Source: a virus. Taken from it: a stretch of 8,485 bases of DNA. The stretch is from UHGV virus genome UHGV-0302546. One strand, given 5' to 3'. Positions 1 through 8,485 of this stretch are shown here, in pieces (within the stretch, counting starts at the first letter, position 1; each line of letters begins with the position of its first letter). A program made the position numbers and the translations under genes. Below the pieces are notes generated by a model. It was not told the DNA's origin. It was given only the letters and a program-made list of their open reading frames with translations, and searched no databases.

Positions 1-336
1 AACCAGACGGCAGAAAGCATGCGCCACGGTGAACGAAAACGAGCCAAACTGTGATACCAGTCCGGCAGCCCTGCCCCTGTCAGCGAGAGATAAATCCGTG
101 CAGTTAATTCCGTAAATCACACGGTCAACCTGCGTGTTACGCGGCAATGCGAGCTGTGCAGATAAGGTCCCGACCTCATCACGATACTGGCGGGAAAGCG
201 TGGCAAGGTTGCGGGTGGCAACATCGCGCTCAGTCCGAAAATGCTCACGTTCGGGCAGCGTCAGGCAGGGACGACCAAGGGCAACGGATGCCGCGTCGAT
301 GGCGTTATACGCTGTAAGGATGGCTGATTCAGTCAT
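1..336 (-). CDS. N-terminal 112 codons of a protein transcribed divergently from the RHH-like genes; probably the N-terminus of the replication initiator (continues past window start)
   Basis: Minus-strand frame from ATG at 336..334 is open to position 1 with no stop (checked codon by codon) and has coding-like GC-rich composition. The plus-strand ORF 134..382 is its shadow. No Shine-Dalgarno upstream, so start is uncertain (alternative GTG at 357). Frame is contiguous with the replication gene at 8485 if the sequence is circular or tandem. Confidence 0.5.
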   Translation of the reverse strand, partial: MTESAILTAYNAIDAASVALGRPCLTLPEREHFRTERDVATRNLATLSRQYRDEVGTLSAQLALPRNTQVDRVIYGINCTDLSLADRGRAAGLVSQFGSFSFTVAHAFCRLV

Positions 337-360
337 AAAAACGAATAAAAAACGCACTGA

Positions 361-437
361 TGTTAAAGTGTTAACAGGTTAACACTCATAATTTTTATGG
401 GTCAAGTGAAAATGTTGTCTTGTTAAACTGTTAACAG
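361..437. promoter_or_regulatory. Divergent promoter/operator region with iterated GTTAAM hexamers
   Basis: GTTAAA/GTTAAC hexamers at 362, 370, 378 and again at 422, 430, each spaced 8 bp. 368..385 GTGTTAACAGGTTAACAC is a 16/18 palindrome. Lies between the divergent ORFs starting at 336 (-) and 451 (+). Candidate -10 CATAAT at 387..392 (+) and -35 TTGACC at 405..400 (-); exact promoters not resolved. Confidence 0.5.
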
Positions 438-450
438 CGGAGATGAACGA

Positions 451-633
451 ATGAAAAGAAAGGCAATAGCAATTACAGAATCAACATATCTGGATATTAC
501 TAGGATAGCCCTTGAGATAAGCCAAAAAACAGGGCAAATAGTTACATGGTCGGAAGTTGTACACTTTATGATAAAAAACTACTTAAACGACGCAAAACAA
601 GACATGATCCACCAAAGAAACCAAAAAAAATAA
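451..633 (+). CDS. Small (60 aa) putative ribbon-helix-helix DNA-binding protein (candidate phage repressor)
   Basis: ATG at 451 with GGAG at 439..442 (8-nt spacer). Sequence shows a predicted N-terminal beta-strand (AIAITE), helix, K-T-G turn, then helix TWSEVVHFMIKNYL, the RHH (Arc/CopG/MetJ-like) pattern. Paralogous to the 705..917 ORF. Confidence 0.6.
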   Translation: MKRKAIAITESTYLDITRIALEISQKTGQIVTWSEVVHFMIKNYLNDAKQDMIHQRNQKK

Positions 634-684
634 CATAGTAGTTACCTATCGATACGAAGATTCCTAAGAAGCAATATATTGACA
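619..684 (+). repeat. Direct repeat copy A (about 60 bp) spanning the stop codon of ORF 451..633
   Basis: taacatagtagttacctatcgatacgaagattcctaagaagcaatat (631..677) matches 1160..1205 at about 90%, with an identical 21-bp core agttacctatcgatacgaagatt... Contains the 8-bp palindrome TATCGATA. The preceding A-rich stretch is also shared. Confidence 0.7.
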
Positions 685-704
685 GGACATAGAGGTAAAC
701 TGTG

Positions 705-917
705 ATGAAAAAAGAAACAAAGCGCGGAGACACAACTGTAAGAATCAACGAAGACAGAAAATTGGAGCTAAAACGAAGAGTGCTAGAAATCGGCAATAAG
801 ACCGGTGAGATACTAAAACCATCTGAAATAGTTAATCACTTAATAGACAATTACTTAGATGAGGCCGTGAAAGATTTAATAAGCAGAGAAGAACTTAAGA
901 AAAAAAGAGCAATGTGA
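705..917 (+). CDS. Small (70 aa) putative ribbon-helix-helix DNA-binding protein, paralog of ORF 451..633
   Basis: ATG at 705 (GTG at 702 also in frame) with AGAGG at 691..695. TVRINEDRKLELKRRVLEIGNKTGEILKPSEIVNHLIDNYL aligns with ISQKTGQIVTWSEVVHFMIKNYL of ORF1 (about 15/26 identical in the helix-turn-helix B segment). Confidence 0.6.
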   Translation: MKKETKRGDTTVRINEDRKLELKRRVLEIGNKTGEILKPSEIVNHLIDNYLDEAVKDLISREELKKKRAM

Positions 918-973
918 TTCCTTTCCCGGCATCGAACAGACGGGCTGACAAAGATCAAACAGAGGTAGTAAAA

Positions 974-1162
974 ATGCCAACAAAGCACATAAACGATGTT
1001 TTATGGAGAAAGGTAGAGAAAGAAACTGTAAAAGTGGTAACAACACTGGCAATACCAGTAAAAGATACCAAAGTTTTAGAATGGATAATCGCAAAAGGAC
1101 TGGAGTCTATAACAGAAGATGACTACAGGAAATTTGCAAAGACGGATGCAACAAAAAAATAA
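974..1162 (+). CDS. Small (62 aa) protein, possibly a third divergent RHH-like paralog
   Basis: ATG at 974 with AGAGG at 961..965 (8-nt spacer). The tracked start at 914 is a GTG overlapping the previous stop and is less likely. Ends in ..KK-stop followed by repeat copy B, exactly as ORF1 ends before copy A. RHH-like pattern (..IPVKDTKVLEWIIAKGL) is weak. Confidence 0.45.
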   Translation: MPTKHINDVLWRKVEKETVKVVTTLAIPVKDTKVLEWIIAKGLESITEDDYRKFAKTDATKK

Positions 1163-1212
1163 CATTATAGTTACCTATCGATACGAAGATTGCTAGAAGC
1201 AATATGCAGACA
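1149..1212 (+). repeat. Direct repeat copy B (about 60 bp) spanning the stop codon of ORF 974..1162
   Basis: taacattatagttacctatcgatacgaagattgctagaagcaatat (1160..1205) matches copy A; the two diverge after ..agaagcaatat. Confidence 0.7.
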
Positions 1213-1359
1213 ACCAGTGACTTAATTCTTGACCTGCTGATAAAGCATTTTGTTGTTGGCAGCATCACAGGCATGACAATATTCAGCCTGATAACGCTTG
1301 TCCCACCGTTGGTGATGACCATACACAACAAACTAAGTAAGGACACTGAAATCCTTTAA
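1204..1359 (+). CDS. Possible small (51 aa) hydrophobic membrane peptide; could be non-coding
   Basis: ATG at 1204 created at the 3' edge of repeat copy B, open to TAA at 1357..1359. Translation MQTTSDLILDLLIKHFVVGSITGMTIFSLITLVPPLVMTIHNKLSKDTEIL has one predicted TM segment. Only a weak SD (GAAG, 4-nt spacer). Below the 60-aa cut-off of the ORF track. Confidence 0.2.
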   Translation: MQTTSDLILDLLIKHFVVGSITGMTIFSLITLVPPLVMTIHNKLSKDTEIL

Positions 1360-1364
1360 GGTTC

Positions 1365-1458
1365 AGTGCGCACAATGACGTTATGTATAAAAAGGCCGCT
1401 GCGGTGGAGAGTATCGCAGCGGCCTTTTCAACATAACGCGTGTCACATTATGCGCACT
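1365..1458. other. Candidate XerCD-dependent attP: two inverted dif-like sites flanking a GC hairpin
   Basis: Site 1 (+, 1365..1391): AGTGCGCACAA-TGACG-TTATGTATAAA. Site 2 (-, 1458..1426): AGTGCGCATAA-TGTGACACGCG-TTATGTTGAAA. Compared with E. coli dif GGTGCGCATAA-TGTATA-TTATGTTAAAT, site 2 shares an exact 13-nt run GTGCGCATAATGT and a 9/11 XerD-arm. The arms of the two sites are mutually complementary, so a single strand can fold into a long hairpin with an asymmetric internal bubble. Confidence 0.5.
1394..1424. terminator. Perfect 9-bp GC stem-loop flanked by A5 and T4: possible bidirectional rho-independent terminator and tip of the attP hairpin
   Basis: GGCCGCTGC (1394..1402), 13-nt loop, GCAGCGGCC (1416..1424). 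T-tract follows on the plus strand (1425..1428) and on the minus strand (complement of 1389..1393). Sits 3' of gIV (-) and 3' of the plus-strand small-gene cluster. Confidence 0.45.
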
Positions 1459-1511
1459 GACGTTGTGGTGGGTAAACTGAGATGCCGCGTCCTGATAATC
1501 CCGGTCGGCAC

Positions 1512-2759
<1,248 letters not shown>

Positions 2760-2911: not shown

Positions 2912-4482
<1,571 letters not shown>

Positions 4483-4484
4483 TA

Positions 4485-5747
4485 TTACCCCCTGTCAACA
4501 AAAAGAACACGACGAACAATAAAATAACAACGCAAAGTCGTTAATGCATAAAGAGCATACTCTAATAAAGGCCTGATAATGTCATCATAAACTGAAGCAA
4601 AATCAGATGTGTCAATTGTAAAATACAACCCATTTATTCCCGGAAATTCAATCTGAACTGGCTGAGCACCAGAACGACGCAGTTCACCAGTTAAAAGTAA
4701 TTTATCAAAATTAATATAAAGCCACTCATCAGGAAGAAGGCTGAAAAGCCTGTCAGCAAATGAAGACATATCATCCTGTTCAGGCGTTACAGAATGAATT
4801 AATTCATTTAACTGTGAATCATAAGAACTAACCGCACTGGTAATATCATCCTGAGAAACAGAAAAAGCATTATTTAAATCATTCACTGAAACCCAAATAC
4901 GCTGCAACCAGCCAAGAATATCACCAAGCCAGCCGTCGCCGGAGGAACTGCCACCGCCTGAGCTACCGCCACCGGAACTACCACCACCTGAGCTGCCGCC
5001 GCCTGAGTTACCACCACCGGAACTGCCGCCACCTGAGCTACCACCGCCAGAACTGCCACCACCTGAGCTACCGCCGCCTGAGTTACCACCACCGGAACTG
5101 CCACCACCTGAGCTACCGCCATCCTCCTTATCATCGGAGAATGCAGGATCTACAGCAACTGGTTTCCAGTTGGCAGTACAAACCGTATCATCATCGGGAT
5201 TACAAATAAAAGGATTGCCGGTTGCCTCATAAATACACCCCTGCACATTAACATAACGGGTCCCGTCATCACCTTTATAAACACCAGGAAAAGTCATACC
5301 ATCAAGAACCGGACGAGAAAGACAAATCTCGTCAGTTGGCGGCTTATTATATTCAGGTGTCAAATCCCCCTCACCACCCTGAAAATCAAGAGTGCAGGTT
5401 TCCCACTCTCGCTTCTCTAAATCCCAGACTTTATATGCGGACCACCGGGCATGGACAAAAACCCCAACGGTGGAAGGCGCGCTAGACGGGGCTGATAGCT
5501 TACTACCGCAATAATGAATTATTCCGGAGCACGCGTCGTAACCACCGGAACCACAAAAAATATGACCAGCACCCCTGGCTAATTTAATCGATGCTCCCGC
5601 ATCTGAATAAGCTGTTCTGCAGGATAAACGGCCAAAACACTGAACAAGCTTATCCGGATCTTCTTTCTCCTCAGCAAAAGAAAGCGAAGAAAAGAACAAA
5701 AACAGAAGCGGAATAATAAAACGAATCAAGCAAAACACTCCTGGCAT
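4485..5747 (-). CDS. gIII: pIII-like adsorption (minor coat) protein, 420 aa
   Basis: Signal peptide MPGVFCLIRFIIPLLFLFFSSLSFA, then a Cys-rich N-terminal region. Segment RYVNVQGCIYEATGNPFICNPDDDTVCTANWKPVAV resembles the recalled M13 N1 (TolA-binding) domain RYANYEGCLWNATGVVVCTGDETQCYGTWVPIGL. Followed by a (GGGSS)n linker and a C-terminal membrane-anchor domain similar to the M13 pIII C-terminus. Confidence 0.85.
   Translation of the reverse strand: MPGVFCLIRFIIPLLFLFFSSLSFAEEKEDPDKLVQCFGRLSCRTAYSDAGASIKLARGAGHIFCGSGGYDACSGIIHYCGSKLSAPSSAPSTVGVFVHARWSAYKVWDLEKREWETCTLDFQGGEGDLTPEYNKPPTDEICLSRPVLDGMTFPGVYKGDDGTRYVNVQGCIYEATGNPFICNPDDDTVCTANWKPVAVDPAFSDDKEDGGSSGGGSSGGGNSGGGSSGGGSSGGGSSGGGSSGGGNSGGGSSGGGSSGGGSSGGGSSSGDGWLGDILGWLQRIWVSVNDLNNAFSVSQDDITSAVSSYDSQLNELIHSVTPEQDDMSSFADRLFSLLPDEWLYINFDKLLLTGELRRSGAQPVQIEFPGINGLYFTIDTSDFASVYDDIIRPLLEYALYALTTLRCYFIVRRVLFVDRG
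4938..5120 (-). repeat. Tandem 15-bp (GGGSS/GGGNS) repeats, about 12 units, including a duplicated 75-bp higher-order unit, inside gIII
   Basis: Plus strand shows repeated ccacctgagctaccg-type 15-mers; the stretch gccgcctgagttaccaccaccggaactgcc occurs twice 75 bp apart. Encodes the Gly/Ser linker of pIII. Confidence 0.85.

Positions 5748-5789: not shown

Positions 5790-6050
<261 letters not shown>

Positions 6051-6820: not shown

Positions 6821-8485
<1,665 letters not shown>

What the first reader, a model, noticed from the sequence alone, without database searches (positions are those of the whole stretch)
361..437. Operator-like array of GTTAAM hexamers at 8-bp spacing with an 18-bp palindrome in the divergent intergenic region
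Hexamers GTTAAA/GTTAAC at 362, 370, 378 and again at 422, 430, each 8 bp apart. 368..385 (GTGTTAACAGGTTAACAC) is a near-perfect palindrome. The array sits exactly between the RHH-like gene (451, +) and the divergent probable replication gene (336, -). RHH proteins typically bind short repeated half-sites, so this looks like the control switch of the phage.
Basis: seen in the sequence. Interest (0 to 1): 0.5.

Follow-up and report, generated by a model that had tools for sequence, protein, structure and literature searches.

The report
Repressor binding array controlling phage replication gene
The repeated GTTAAC motifs are real and are most likely the binding sites through which a small phage repressor shuts off the replication gene of an E. 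coli filamentous prophage: a familiar kind of switch, in a protein family nobody has characterised.

Summary
No binding or transcript experiment exists.

**What it is.** The window is one complete 8,485-bp circular unit of an inovirus prophage that sits at dif, next to hipA, in E. coli. Between the replication gene (start 336, minus strand) and a 60-aa gene (451-633) lie two arrays of an 8-bp palindromic box, TGTTAACA, repeated in tandem. The arrays are 361-384 and 413-436, three boxes each, 28 bp apart.

**Evidence the boxes matter.**
- TGTTAA-N4-TTAACA occurs three times, all here, against 0.01 expected by chance.
- The 60-aa protein models as a ribbon-helix-helix (RHH) protein and is remotely related to ParG.
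- In 22 related intergenic regions falling into 9 classes, the N-terminal ribbon differs by class and the box sequence changes with it. The helical scaffold and the 8-bp spacing stay the same.
- GTTAAC occurs only beside class-A proteins.
- A phage whose Rep is 99.3% identical carries TGCA boxes and a class-B regulator, so the boxes are not Rep iterons.

**Likely mechanism.** The best promoter-like site in every class-A region points at rep. Its extended -10 (TGtTAACCT, 384-376) lies inside the left array.

**Novelty.** This is a new member of a known kind: a MetJ/ParG-style tandem-box operator used in the role of the CTXphi rstR/ig-2 immunity module.

The parts
361..384 (.). Left (rep-proximal) operator array: three tandem 8-bp boxes, TGTTAAAG (361-368), TGTTAACA (369-376) and GGTTAACA (377-384).
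   Evidence: These columns are invariant in the alignment of five class-A intergenic regions.
413..436 (.). Right (regulator-proximal) operator array: TGTTGTCT (413-420, degenerate here but a perfect box in L004), TGTTAAAC (421-428) and TGTTAACA (429-436).
   Evidence: The 28-29 bp gap to the left array is conserved in all class-A relatives.
376..384 (-). Predicted extended -10 of the rep promoter, TGtTAACCT read on the minus strand. It lies inside box 3 of the left array.
   Evidence: This is the top-scoring sigma-70-like site in all five class-A intergenic regions (scores 12.0-14.7, against at most 10.1 for any other site) and it sits at the same alignment position in each. It is a prediction; there is no transcript data.
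400..405 (-). Predicted -35 of the rep promoter, TTGACC on the minus strand, 18 nt from the -10. It is part of a conserved spacer core, TCAAGTGAAAATGT (402-415).
   Evidence: The core CAAGT[GA]AAAATGT also appears in a class-B (L041) and a class-I (L035) intergenic region.
451..633 (+). Gene for the 60-aa RHH-like regulator, here called class A (ribbon KAIAITEST). GGAG at 439-442 is a likely ribosome-binding site. This is the proposed repressor that reads the TGTTAACA boxes.
1..336 (-). 5' part of the replication endonuclease gene (Phage_GPA family), the proposed target of repression. The ORF continues across the window ends into 8485-6821, giving 666 aa.
   Evidence: Joining the window ends gives an intact 2,001-nt ORF with a single terminal stop.
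6821..8485 (-). 3' part of the same replication endonuclease gene.
   Evidence: PF05840 at E 3.9e-49 and phrog_91 'nicking at origin of replication'.
705..917 (+). Paralogous RHH-like regulator, here called class D (ribbon TTVRINEDR). It is 66% identical to the 'environmental RstR' of CTXphi. Its cognate CGCATGCG boxes are absent from this window, so it is an orphan.
974..1162 (+). Third small regulator-like gene (phrog_5219), homologous to RstR-calc of CTXphi.
   Evidence: Sequence comparison with the RstR-calc gene in L042, which I found using the published rstR-calc primer.

Best explanation
The 361-436 region is the operator of a divergent immunity and replication switch in a dif-integrating inovirus.

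The 60-aa product of 451-633 is a ribbon-helix-helix protein. As a dimer it would place its two-stranded N-terminal ribbon into the major groove at the centre of each 8-bp palindromic box (TGTTAACA). Dimers on adjacent boxes would contact one another through the conserved helical scaffold, which is what fixes the 8-bp centre-to-centre spacing.

Three dimers on the left array (361-384) would cover the extended -10 (384-376) and the start site of the leftward rep promoter. That would shut off the replication endonuclease and hence the production of replicative form and virions, keeping the prophage quiet and excluding superinfecting phages of the same box type. The right array (413-436) lies just upstream of the regulator's ribosome-binding site and most likely gives autoregulation.

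Status of each step:
- Shown by sequence: the boxes, their phase and their conservation; the link between box type and regulator type; independence from Rep.
- Inferred: the RHH fold (from a model and remote homology); the promoter positions (consensus scoring only); one dimer per box, cooperativity, repression and immunity (by analogy with MetJ, ParG and CTXphi RstR).
For: **The boxes are real and non-random**.

**Specificity follows the regulator.** Nine ribbon classes each have their own box, all in 8-bp phase:
- A, KAIAITEST: GTTAAC
- B, KSIGISNER: GTGCAA
- C, KNLGVPAET: TCAC/GTGA
- D, TTVRINExR: CGCATGCG
- E, TTMAIVAER: TATGCA
- F, TSVRINAQR: CATAC
- G, KNASITGDR: CATGAA
- H, KTITITAER: TGATT
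- I, KQIAFTEAT: GTAAAC

. Summed over one intergenic region per class, 4-mer self-matches number 62 at lag 8 and 34 at lag 16, against a null mean of 9 and a maximum of 26 in 2,000 shuffles. Other lags sit at or near the null mean (3-12). GTTAAC occurs 3-5 times in each class-A region and never in the 18 others.

**Footprints.** In class A, box columns are invariant while the spacer diverges. In class D, the block GTAAATACGCAT is identical in all six class-D regions and extends to TGTAAATACGCATGCG in five of them. These six include E. coli and Vibrio phages (CTXphi, VAI2) with different rep genes.

**Not Rep.** The L006 phage has a Rep 99.3% identical over 612 aa but carries class-B boxes, and L002 is 96.6% identical with class-D boxes. 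Conversely, the regulator family sits beside Phage_GPA, Rep_trans, Phage_CRI/G2P and RstA-type rep genes.

**Promoter.** A conserved site on the minus strand, TTGACn-18-TGtTAACnT, is the best in all five class-A regions. In most other classes the best site also points at rep and lies between or overlapping the arrays.

**Precedents.** ParG reads ACTC boxes with invariant 4-bp spacers, which is an 8-bp period. Its ribbons are portable and its helical scaffold sets the spacing (PMC3413123). CTXphi RstR alleles repress only their own ig-2 promoter (PMC11509585).
Against: - There is no binding, footprinting or transcript-mapping data for this protein or any E. coli relative. Every database copy is called 'hypothetical protein'.
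- Co-variation of a gene with the DNA next to it is partly expected from linkage alone.
- The Foldseek search of the PDB gave nothing significant, and Pfam has no family for the protein.
- The DNA-facing ribbon positions of class A are Ala-x-Ala-x-Thr, which is unusually apolar for base reading.
- No convincing promoter for the regulator gene was found on the plus strand, so the role of the right array is a guess.
- The built-in consensus scan found no promoter in this region at its own threshold. The rep promoter rests on my own scoring scheme.
- The 8-bp phase is weak in classes C and D.
Confidence: 0.8

Rival explanations
1. The boxes are iterons or origin elements bound by the replication endonuclease (Rep). 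They would mark the plus-strand origin rather than a transcriptional operator.
For: They lie directly upstream of rep. HUH-type Rep proteins often act on repeats near their own gene (established knowledge). The window Rep is Phage_GPA/phrog_91, 'nicking at origin of replication'.
Against: The L006 phage has a Rep 608/612 aa identical to the window's but completely different boxes (TGCA type). L002, at 96.6% identity, has CGCATGCG boxes. The same box architecture also sits next to four unrelated Rep families.
Confidence: 0.03
2. The two arrays pair with each other in the single-stranded phage DNA, or in RNA, to form a long hairpin. This would serve as a minus-strand origin, a packaging signal or an RNA regulatory element.
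For: 369-384 and 421-436 are 94% complementary (pair I1). The folded region is somewhat more stable than shuffles, with z -1.83 as DNA and -1.88 as RNA.
Against: - The complementarity follows automatically from the boxes being palindromes.
- The z-scores are modest; 8 and 12 of 200 shuffles fold as well.
- On the class-A alignment only 75% of cells pair, against 73% in shuffles, with many broken pairs. In L004 the middle of the stem is lost while the 8-bp register is kept.
- A hairpin does not explain the 8-bp period, or class-I arrays built from direct, non-palindromic repeats.
- There is no Rfam match.
Confidence: 0.05
3. The boxes are sites for a host factor, such as a global regulator. RovA is reported to bind the putative promoter region of the YpfPhi gene YPO2274, which the review places in that phage's replication module. 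The neighbouring small protein would then do something else.
For: RovA binds the YPO2274 promoter region of the related phage YpfPhi (PMC4266046). The region is AT-rich.
Against: Box types A, B, D and H all occur in prophages of the same host species, E. coli, and switch with the phage regulator class. A host factor would impose a single motif. No LexA-type CTGT-N8-ACAG box is visible in the sequence.
Confidence: 0.03
4. The RHH protein does bind the boxes, but not mainly as a repressor of rep. It could be an activator or anti-repressor, or it could coat the arrays as a centromere-like or architectural complex for maintaining the replicative form, as its remote relative ParG does on parH.
For: The family profile is remotely homologous to ParG, which is both a centromere-binding protein and a repressor. 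The promoter assignment is only predicted. The two arrays start 52 bp apart, about five helical turns, which would suit a higher-order complex.
Against: - No ParA/ParF-type partner gene exists in the 8.5-kb genome.
- The position and divergent layout match the CTXphi rstR/rstA module, where repression is shown.
- The predicted -10 lies inside the left array, which is the geometry of repression.
Confidence: 0.08

Closest known systems
ParG of plasmid TP228 and its O_F operator and parH centromere (RHH protein reading arrays of tetramer boxes)
   Same: - The family profile aligns to ParG from the ribbon through helix B (probability 90.5%).
[quoted passage not shown] They occur in direct or inverted orientation, with single dimers multimerizing cooperatively along the array and cooperativity through the helical scaffold.
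- ParG ribbons can be transplanted to change the box that is read (PMC3413123).
- The phage family looks like the natural version of that experiment: one conserved scaffold, one spacing, many ribbons and many boxes.
   Different: - Sequence similarity is marginal: no Pfam hit for the window protein, and ParG is only a weak hit in 15 of 69 members.
- There is no flexible N-terminal tail and no ParF partner.
- The boxes here are 6-8 bp palindromes abutting one another, not 4-bp cores with AT-rich spacers.
- The context is a phage replication switch, not plasmid partition.
MetJ repressor and tandem 8-bp 'metbox' operators of E. coli
   Same: Both have an 8-bp palindromic unit repeated head to tail. 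MetJ has 2-5 metboxes of AGACGTCT. One RHH dimer is centred on each box and neighbouring dimers touch. This rests on established knowledge (Somers and Phillips 1992); the ACGT core is mentioned.
   Different: There is no detectable sequence relationship. MetJ needs the co-repressor S-adenosylmethionine and is larger, at 104 aa. No co-repressor is suggested here.
CTXphi rstR / ig-2 / rstA immunity module
   Same: - A small repressor gene is divergent from the rep gene in a XerCD/dif-integrating inovirus.
- Repressor alleles are highly variable, each with its own intergenic region and allele-specific repression (PMC11509585).
- The window's second small protein is 66% identical to the 'environmental RstR' of CTXphi.
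- The third is homologous to RstR-calc.
- The window's attP-like region resembles that of CTXphi.
   Different: - As far as I know, the classical RstR-ET and RstR-class proteins are about 112-aa helix-turn-helix proteins with long operators. I did not test that here.
- The window protein gave no Pfam match at all, helix-turn-helix families included.
- No operator has been defined, to my knowledge, for the RHH-like RstR alleles.
- The class-A protein and the GTTAAC boxes are unstudied.
YpfPhi of Yersinia pestis and CUS-1 of E. coli K1
   Same: Both are inoviruses of Enterobacterales (YpfPhi about 8.7 kb) with two opposite transcription directions. The intergenic region is 'believed to be involved in transcription initiation', and the RstR homologue YPO2273 has a role that 'awaits experimental demonstration' (PMC4266046).
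   Different: I could not obtain their sequences for direct comparison. The phage collection has no nucleotide match to the window.
Omega repressor of pSM19035 (RHH, 7-bp heptad arrays)
   Same: Omega is an RHH dimer that binds one short repeat. The arrays hold direct and inverted repeats that overlap promoters, and binding is cooperative. This rests on established knowledge and was not tested here.
   Different: The period is 7 bp rather than 8. It comes from a Gram-positive plasmid. No sequence similarity was found.

Membership tests
Ribbon-helix-helix (RHH) DNA-binding superfamily | Strand-helix-helix topology of about 45 residues | tested here: met
   The AF2 model (pLDDT 95.2) has residues 1-9 extended and helices at 10-27 and 33-59. 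The strand is not called as beta in a monomer model, as expected. Helix 2 is longer than in minimal RHH proteins.
Ribbon-helix-helix (RHH) DNA-binding superfamily | Structural or sequence similarity to solved RHH proteins | tested here: met
Ribbon-helix-helix (RHH) DNA-binding superfamily | Obligate dimer with an antiparallel two-stranded ribbon inserted in the major groove | not testable with these tools
   Only single-chain prediction was available. This needs AF-multimer or AF3 with DNA, or an experiment.
Tandem-box RHH operators (MetJ metboxes, ParG O_F, omega heptads) | Two or more short boxes at a fixed centre-to-centre distance, in direct or inverted orientation | tested here: met
   There are 3 + 3 boxes at exactly 8 bp. 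The lag-8 signal is 62 against a null of 9 across nine classes. The register is kept even when individual boxes decay (window compared with L004).
Tandem-box RHH operators (MetJ metboxes, ParG O_F, omega heptads) | The array overlaps the core promoter of the regulated gene | tested here: inconclusive
   The best consensus-scored promoter, conserved in all five class-A regions, has its extended -10 inside box 3, and other classes are similar. There is no transcript-start data, and the built-in scan found nothing at its own threshold.
Tandem-box RHH operators (MetJ metboxes, ParG O_F, omega heptads) | One dimer per box, with cooperative binding | not testable with these tools
   Needs EMSA or footprint stoichiometry.
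CTXphi-type rstR/ig-2 immunity module | Small regulator gene divergent from rep in a dif-integrating inovirus | tested here: met
   The layout is shown. The prophage lies in tandem next to hipA. There are inverted dif-like sites at 1363-1460, and the host junction falls right after them.
CTXphi-type rstR/ig-2 immunity module | Regulator allele and intergenic region vary together, independently of rep | tested here: met
   Phages with nearly the same Rep carry class-A, class-B or class-D modules. In L006 (class B) and L002 (class D) similarity to the window stops at about the rep start codon; in H15-H20 it stops there because an IS110 element replaces the module.
CTXphi-type rstR/ig-2 immunity module | Allele-specific repression of the rep promoter and superinfection immunity | not testable with these tools
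   This is shown for eight CTXphi rstR alleles (PMC11509585) but not for this protein.
CTXphi-type rstR/ig-2 immunity module | Sequence homology of the regulator to a named RstR | tested here: inconclusive
   The 451-633 product is only a 38-42% identical paralogue of the 705-917 product, which in turn is 66% identical to the 'environmental RstR'. It gave no Pfam match at all; I did not compare it directly with the classical RstR-ET or RstR-class proteins.
Rep iterons / replication origin repeats | The repeat sequence co-varies with the Rep protein that binds it | tested here: not met
   A Rep 99.3% identical sits beside different boxes. The same box architecture occurs next to four Rep families.

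The most novel reading that the evidence does not exclude
This small RHH family may be a natural 'ribbon-swap' system. One helical scaffold would fix an 8-bp box spacing across inoviruses of Escherichia, Salmonella, Yersinia, Pasteurellaceae and Vibrio. The three DNA-facing ribbon residues would then set at least nine mutually exclusive box specificities, which amounts to a readable protein-DNA code for phage immunity.

On top of that, this particular phage carries three repressor genes in a row. One is cognate (class A). Two are orphans with no matching operator anywhere in the genome: a class-D RstR-env-like gene and an RstR-calc-like gene. Together they would silence rival inoviruses that compete for the same dif site, giving stacked cross-immunity.
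Probability: 0.3. Interest if true: 0.6.

Novelty: new member of a known kind. Interest (0 to 1): 0.45.

Why it matters
Filamentous prophages at dif are common in pathogenic E. coli, Yersinia and Vibrio. Yet outside CTXphi and Pf4 their lysogeny switches are essentially unknown, and this regulator is not even annotated in the RefSeq prophage.

The result gives a concrete, testable operator for a widespread regulator family: at least 333 protein clusters with no Pfam family. It also explains why the region next to rep is a recombination hot-spot, since immunity modules are being swapped.

The set of nine matched ribbon and box pairs on one scaffold could be used to study, or engineer, RHH specificity, as was done artificially with ParG.

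The mechanism itself is conventional. If it holds, it fills in a gap rather than overturning anything.

Tried and rejected
- **Nucleotide search of the phage collection:** megablast with the whole window found no match.
- **Pfam on the three small proteins:** nothing.
- **Profile against PDB sequences:** only a marginal ParG hit, E 0.11. This was followed up with hhalign.
- **First homologue search with the single protein:** only 3 hits. A 13-sequence alignment was needed to reach 333.
- **Rep-iteron idea:** rejected on the 99.3%-identical Rep with different boxes.
- **Inter-array hairpin:** rejected for lack of covariation and modest z-scores.
- **Rfam:** no match.
- **Could the RstR-calc-like third protein read GTTAAC?** I suspected this because a published ig-2-calc primer contains TGTTAAC. 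I rejected it because the CTX-calc intergenic region (L042) has TTCTAAG-type repeats and no GTTAAC array, and because class-A arrays occur in phages that lack that gene (L003).
- **Is RstR-6, shown experimentally to repress its own ig-2, a member of this RHH family?** Its primer-encoded ends (MKKKYTSLRVS... and ...KTDLKR) look like it. I could not retrieve the sequence, so this remains a lead only.
- **Promoter for the regulator gene:** I could not place one. Candidates such as TGaAAATGT at 407-415 and TGtTAAACT at 421-429 are weak and not conserved.

Full report
**Context**

The window is a complete circular unit of a filamentous phage (inovirus). Its genes include:
- a secretin (1512-2750, minus strand)
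- a Zot/pI-like protein (2912-4123, minus strand)
- a glycine-rich pIII-like protein (4485-5747, minus strand)
- a small coat-like protein (5790-6050, minus strand)
- a Phage_GPA replication endonuclease

Joining the two window ends closes the rep reading frame into one intact 2,001-nt ORF (336 to 1, then 8485 to 6821). A 99.4% identical copy of window 1-1400 lies in a tandem pair of prophage units next to hipA in E. coli strain E100341. Inverted dif-like sites at 1363-1460 mark the attachment site, and the prophage/host junction falls immediately after them.

**The observation**

The better description is an 8-bp palindromic box, TGTTAACA, repeated head to tail:
- 361-384 holds TGTTAAAG, TGTTAACA and GGTTAACA.
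- 413-436 holds TGTTGTCT, TGTTAAAC and TGTTAACA.

The statistics are clear:
- TGTTAA-N4-TTAACA occurs three times, all here, with 0.01 expected.
- The 8-bp self-similarity of the intergenic region exceeds all 20,000 shuffles.
- It is the strongest such signal in the window, 13 against at most 5 elsewhere.

The 18-bp palindrome is simply two neighbouring palindromic boxes.

**The neighbouring protein**

The 451-633 ORF is a real gene. Against the 85%-identical relative L004 it shows 16 synonymous and 2 non-synonymous codon differences. RefSeq nevertheless does not annotate it.

It belongs to phrog_2503 ('unknown function') and has no Pfam family. An alignment-based search found 333 protein clusters, mostly from Enterobacterales, Pasteurellaceae and Vibrionaceae. 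A few are named 'RstR', 'repressor-like' or 'TraY' by their sources.

The evidence for an RHH fold is as follows:
- AlphaFold2 with a 69-sequence alignment gives pLDDT 95.2: an extended N-terminus (residues 1-9) and two helices.
- Foldseek found nothing significant.
- The family profile aligns to ParG of plasmid TP228 from the ribbon through helix B at 90.5% probability.

**Comparative test**

I collected 22 intergenic regions that lie between a family member and the divergent rep gene. They came from E. coli genomes, IMG/VR contigs, GTDB genomes, metagenomes and named phages.

The proteins share a conserved scaffold (KTG...SE.V..LI.NYL..A..D) but fall into nine classes by N-terminal ribbon. 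Each class has its own box:

| Class | Ribbon | Box |
|---|---|---|
| A | KAIAITEST | GTTAAC |
| B | KSIGISNER | GTGCAA / TGCAC |
| C | KNLGVPAET | TCAC / GTGA |
| D | TTVRINExR | CGCATGCG |
| E | TTMAIVAER | TATGCA |
| F | TSVRINAQR | CATAC |
| G | KNASITGDR | CATGAA |
| H | KTITITAER | TGATT |
| I | KQIAFTEAT | GTAAAC |

- GTTAAC occurs 3-5 times in every class-A region and never in the other 18.
- The 8-bp phase is common to the family. Over one region per class, identical 4-mers at lag 8 number 62 and at lag 16 number 34. The null mean is 9 with a maximum of 26. Other lags sit at or near the null mean (3-12).
- Related ribbons have related boxes. Class D, with DNA-facing residues T-R-N, reads GCATGC. 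Class F, with S-R-N, reads GCATAC.
- Within class A (window, L003, L004, L030, L040) the invariant columns are the boxes plus a short spacer core, while the rest diverges. Where one box decays, another in the same 8-bp register is intact.
- Within class D, the block GTAAATACGCAT is identical in all six regions and extends to TGTAAATACGCATGCG in five of them. The six include E. coli phages, CTXphi-env and Vibrio phage VAI2, which have different rep genes.

**Not Rep**

The L006 phage has a Rep 608/612 aa identical to the window's, yet it carries class-B boxes and a class-B regulator. L002 has a Rep 96.6% identical and carries class D. In both, similarity to the window stops at about the rep start codon. 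Conversely, the regulator-plus-array module sits beside Phage_GPA, Rep_trans, Phage_CRI/G2P and RstA-type rep genes. The module is therefore exchangeable and its boxes follow the small protein.

**Promoters**

With a simple sigma-70 scoring scheme, the best site in all five class-A regions is on the minus strand and at the same alignment position. It reads -35 TTGACC (405-400), an 18-nt spacer, then an extended -10 TGtTAACCT (384-376). Scores are 12.0-14.7, against at most 10.1 for any other site.

The TGTTAAC box thus doubles as an extended -10, and the predicted rep start lies inside the left array. In most other classes the best site also points at rep and lies between or overlapping the two arrays.

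I could not place the regulator's own promoter. The right array ends 2 bp before the GGAG ribosome-binding site, which is why I suggest autoregulation. All of this is prediction, and the built-in scan reports nothing here at its own threshold.

**Rivals**

- A hairpin between the arrays is no better supported than chance, and the complementarity is an automatic consequence of palindromic boxes.
- A host factor cannot explain four box types within one host species.
- A ParG-like architectural or centromere role cannot be excluded, but there is no ParA partner gene.
- Rfam has no match.

**What is known**

The operator design matches MetJ and ParG. MetJ binds tandem 8-bp palindromic metboxes (established knowledge). 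For ParG, boxes have invariant 4-bp spacers, ribbons are portable, and the scaffold dictates spacing (PMC3413123).

The biological role matches the CTXphi rstR/ig-2/rstA module, in which each rstR allele represses only its own ig-2 promoter (PMC11509585). The YpfPhi review notes an RstR homologue at this position whose role 'awaits experimental demonstration' (PMC4266046). All E. coli copies are labelled 'hypothetical protein'.

I therefore file this as a new member of a known kind.

**An extra feature of this phage**

Downstream of the class-A gene lie two further regulator-like genes:
- 705-917 is a class-D paralogue, 66% identical to the CTXphi 'environmental RstR'.
- 974-1162 is a homologue of RstR-calc.

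The class-D boxes are absent from the whole window. This two-gene cassette is flanked by a 43-nt direct repeat (624-666 and 1153-1195). It is missing from the otherwise similar L003. Only 3 of 5,426 complete E. coli genomes carry the three-gene arrangement. Orphan repressors giving cross-immunity against rival inoviruses is the most novel reading that the data leave open.

Noticed in passing
window 1363-1460: Two inverted dif-like sequences surround a perfect 14-bp stem (1390-1403 with 1415-1428). Examples are AGTGCGCATAATGTG... on the minus strand at 1458, and GTGCGCACAATGACGTTATGT on the plus strand. In the E100341 prophage the phage/host junction falls right after ...TTATGCGCACT. This looks like a CTXphi-type folded single-strand attP used by XerCD.
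   Followed up: partly
window 451-633; L001 12451-12633: The class-A regulator gene is not annotated in the RefSeq record of the near-identical prophage (only the 705-917 and 974-1162 genes are). Yet it is under clear purifying selection, and the exact protein is recorded on 383 contigs.
   Followed up: yes
window 974-1162: The third small protein (MPTKHINDVLWRKVEKETVK...) is homologous to RstR-calc of CTXphi Calcutta (MATKHIKDSTWRKVEEKTVK...). I found the RstR-calc gene by way of a published primer. The phage therefore encodes three RstR-like proteins from two families.
   Followed up: partly
window 624-666 and 1153-1195: A 43-nt direct repeat (93% identical) flanks the 705-1162 two-gene cassette. 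L003 has a single copy and no cassette. This suggests gain or loss by recombination, with a junction near 677-684 that leaves the class-D gene without its own operator.
   Followed up: partly
L028 (phage If1, U02303.1) about 1180-1370, inside the annotated 'major intergenic region': An unannotated ORF encodes a class-E family member (MATPKRTTMAIVAERKLKLERLAIDASHTAGRAITWTDIVNHLIDNYAKDTEKDLIHTTKSSE). No TATGCA box array is visible in the roughly 230 nt upstream of it.
   Followed up: no
L005 1842-2807, and hits H15-H19: L005 (hit H15) has an IS110-family transposase inserted exactly where the regulatory module should begin, right at the rep start codon, replacing the operator and regulator. Hits H16-H19 break off at the same point in the query, but I did not fetch their records.
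   Followed up: no
window 337-360 (minus strand, upstream of the rep ATG at 336): In the class-A module, rep has no recognisable Shine-Dalgarno sequence; the leader is ...TTATTCGTTTTTATG. The class-B and class-D modules supply GGGGGA or GAGGGGAG before a GTG or ATG start. Translation signals of rep are therefore swapped together with the module.
   Followed up: no
window 4485-5747 compared with L001 7910-9244: The pIII-like gene differs in length (420 against 444 aa) between this window and the closest prophage. I assume the difference lies in the GGGSS-type glycine-rich repeat but did not check.
   Followed up: no
L031/L032 1174-1356 and L041 1170-1367: In the Rep_trans-type relatives, an extra 60-65-aa ORF lies between rep and the operator region on the rep strand. 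It may be an additional small regulator or a leader peptide.
   Followed up: no
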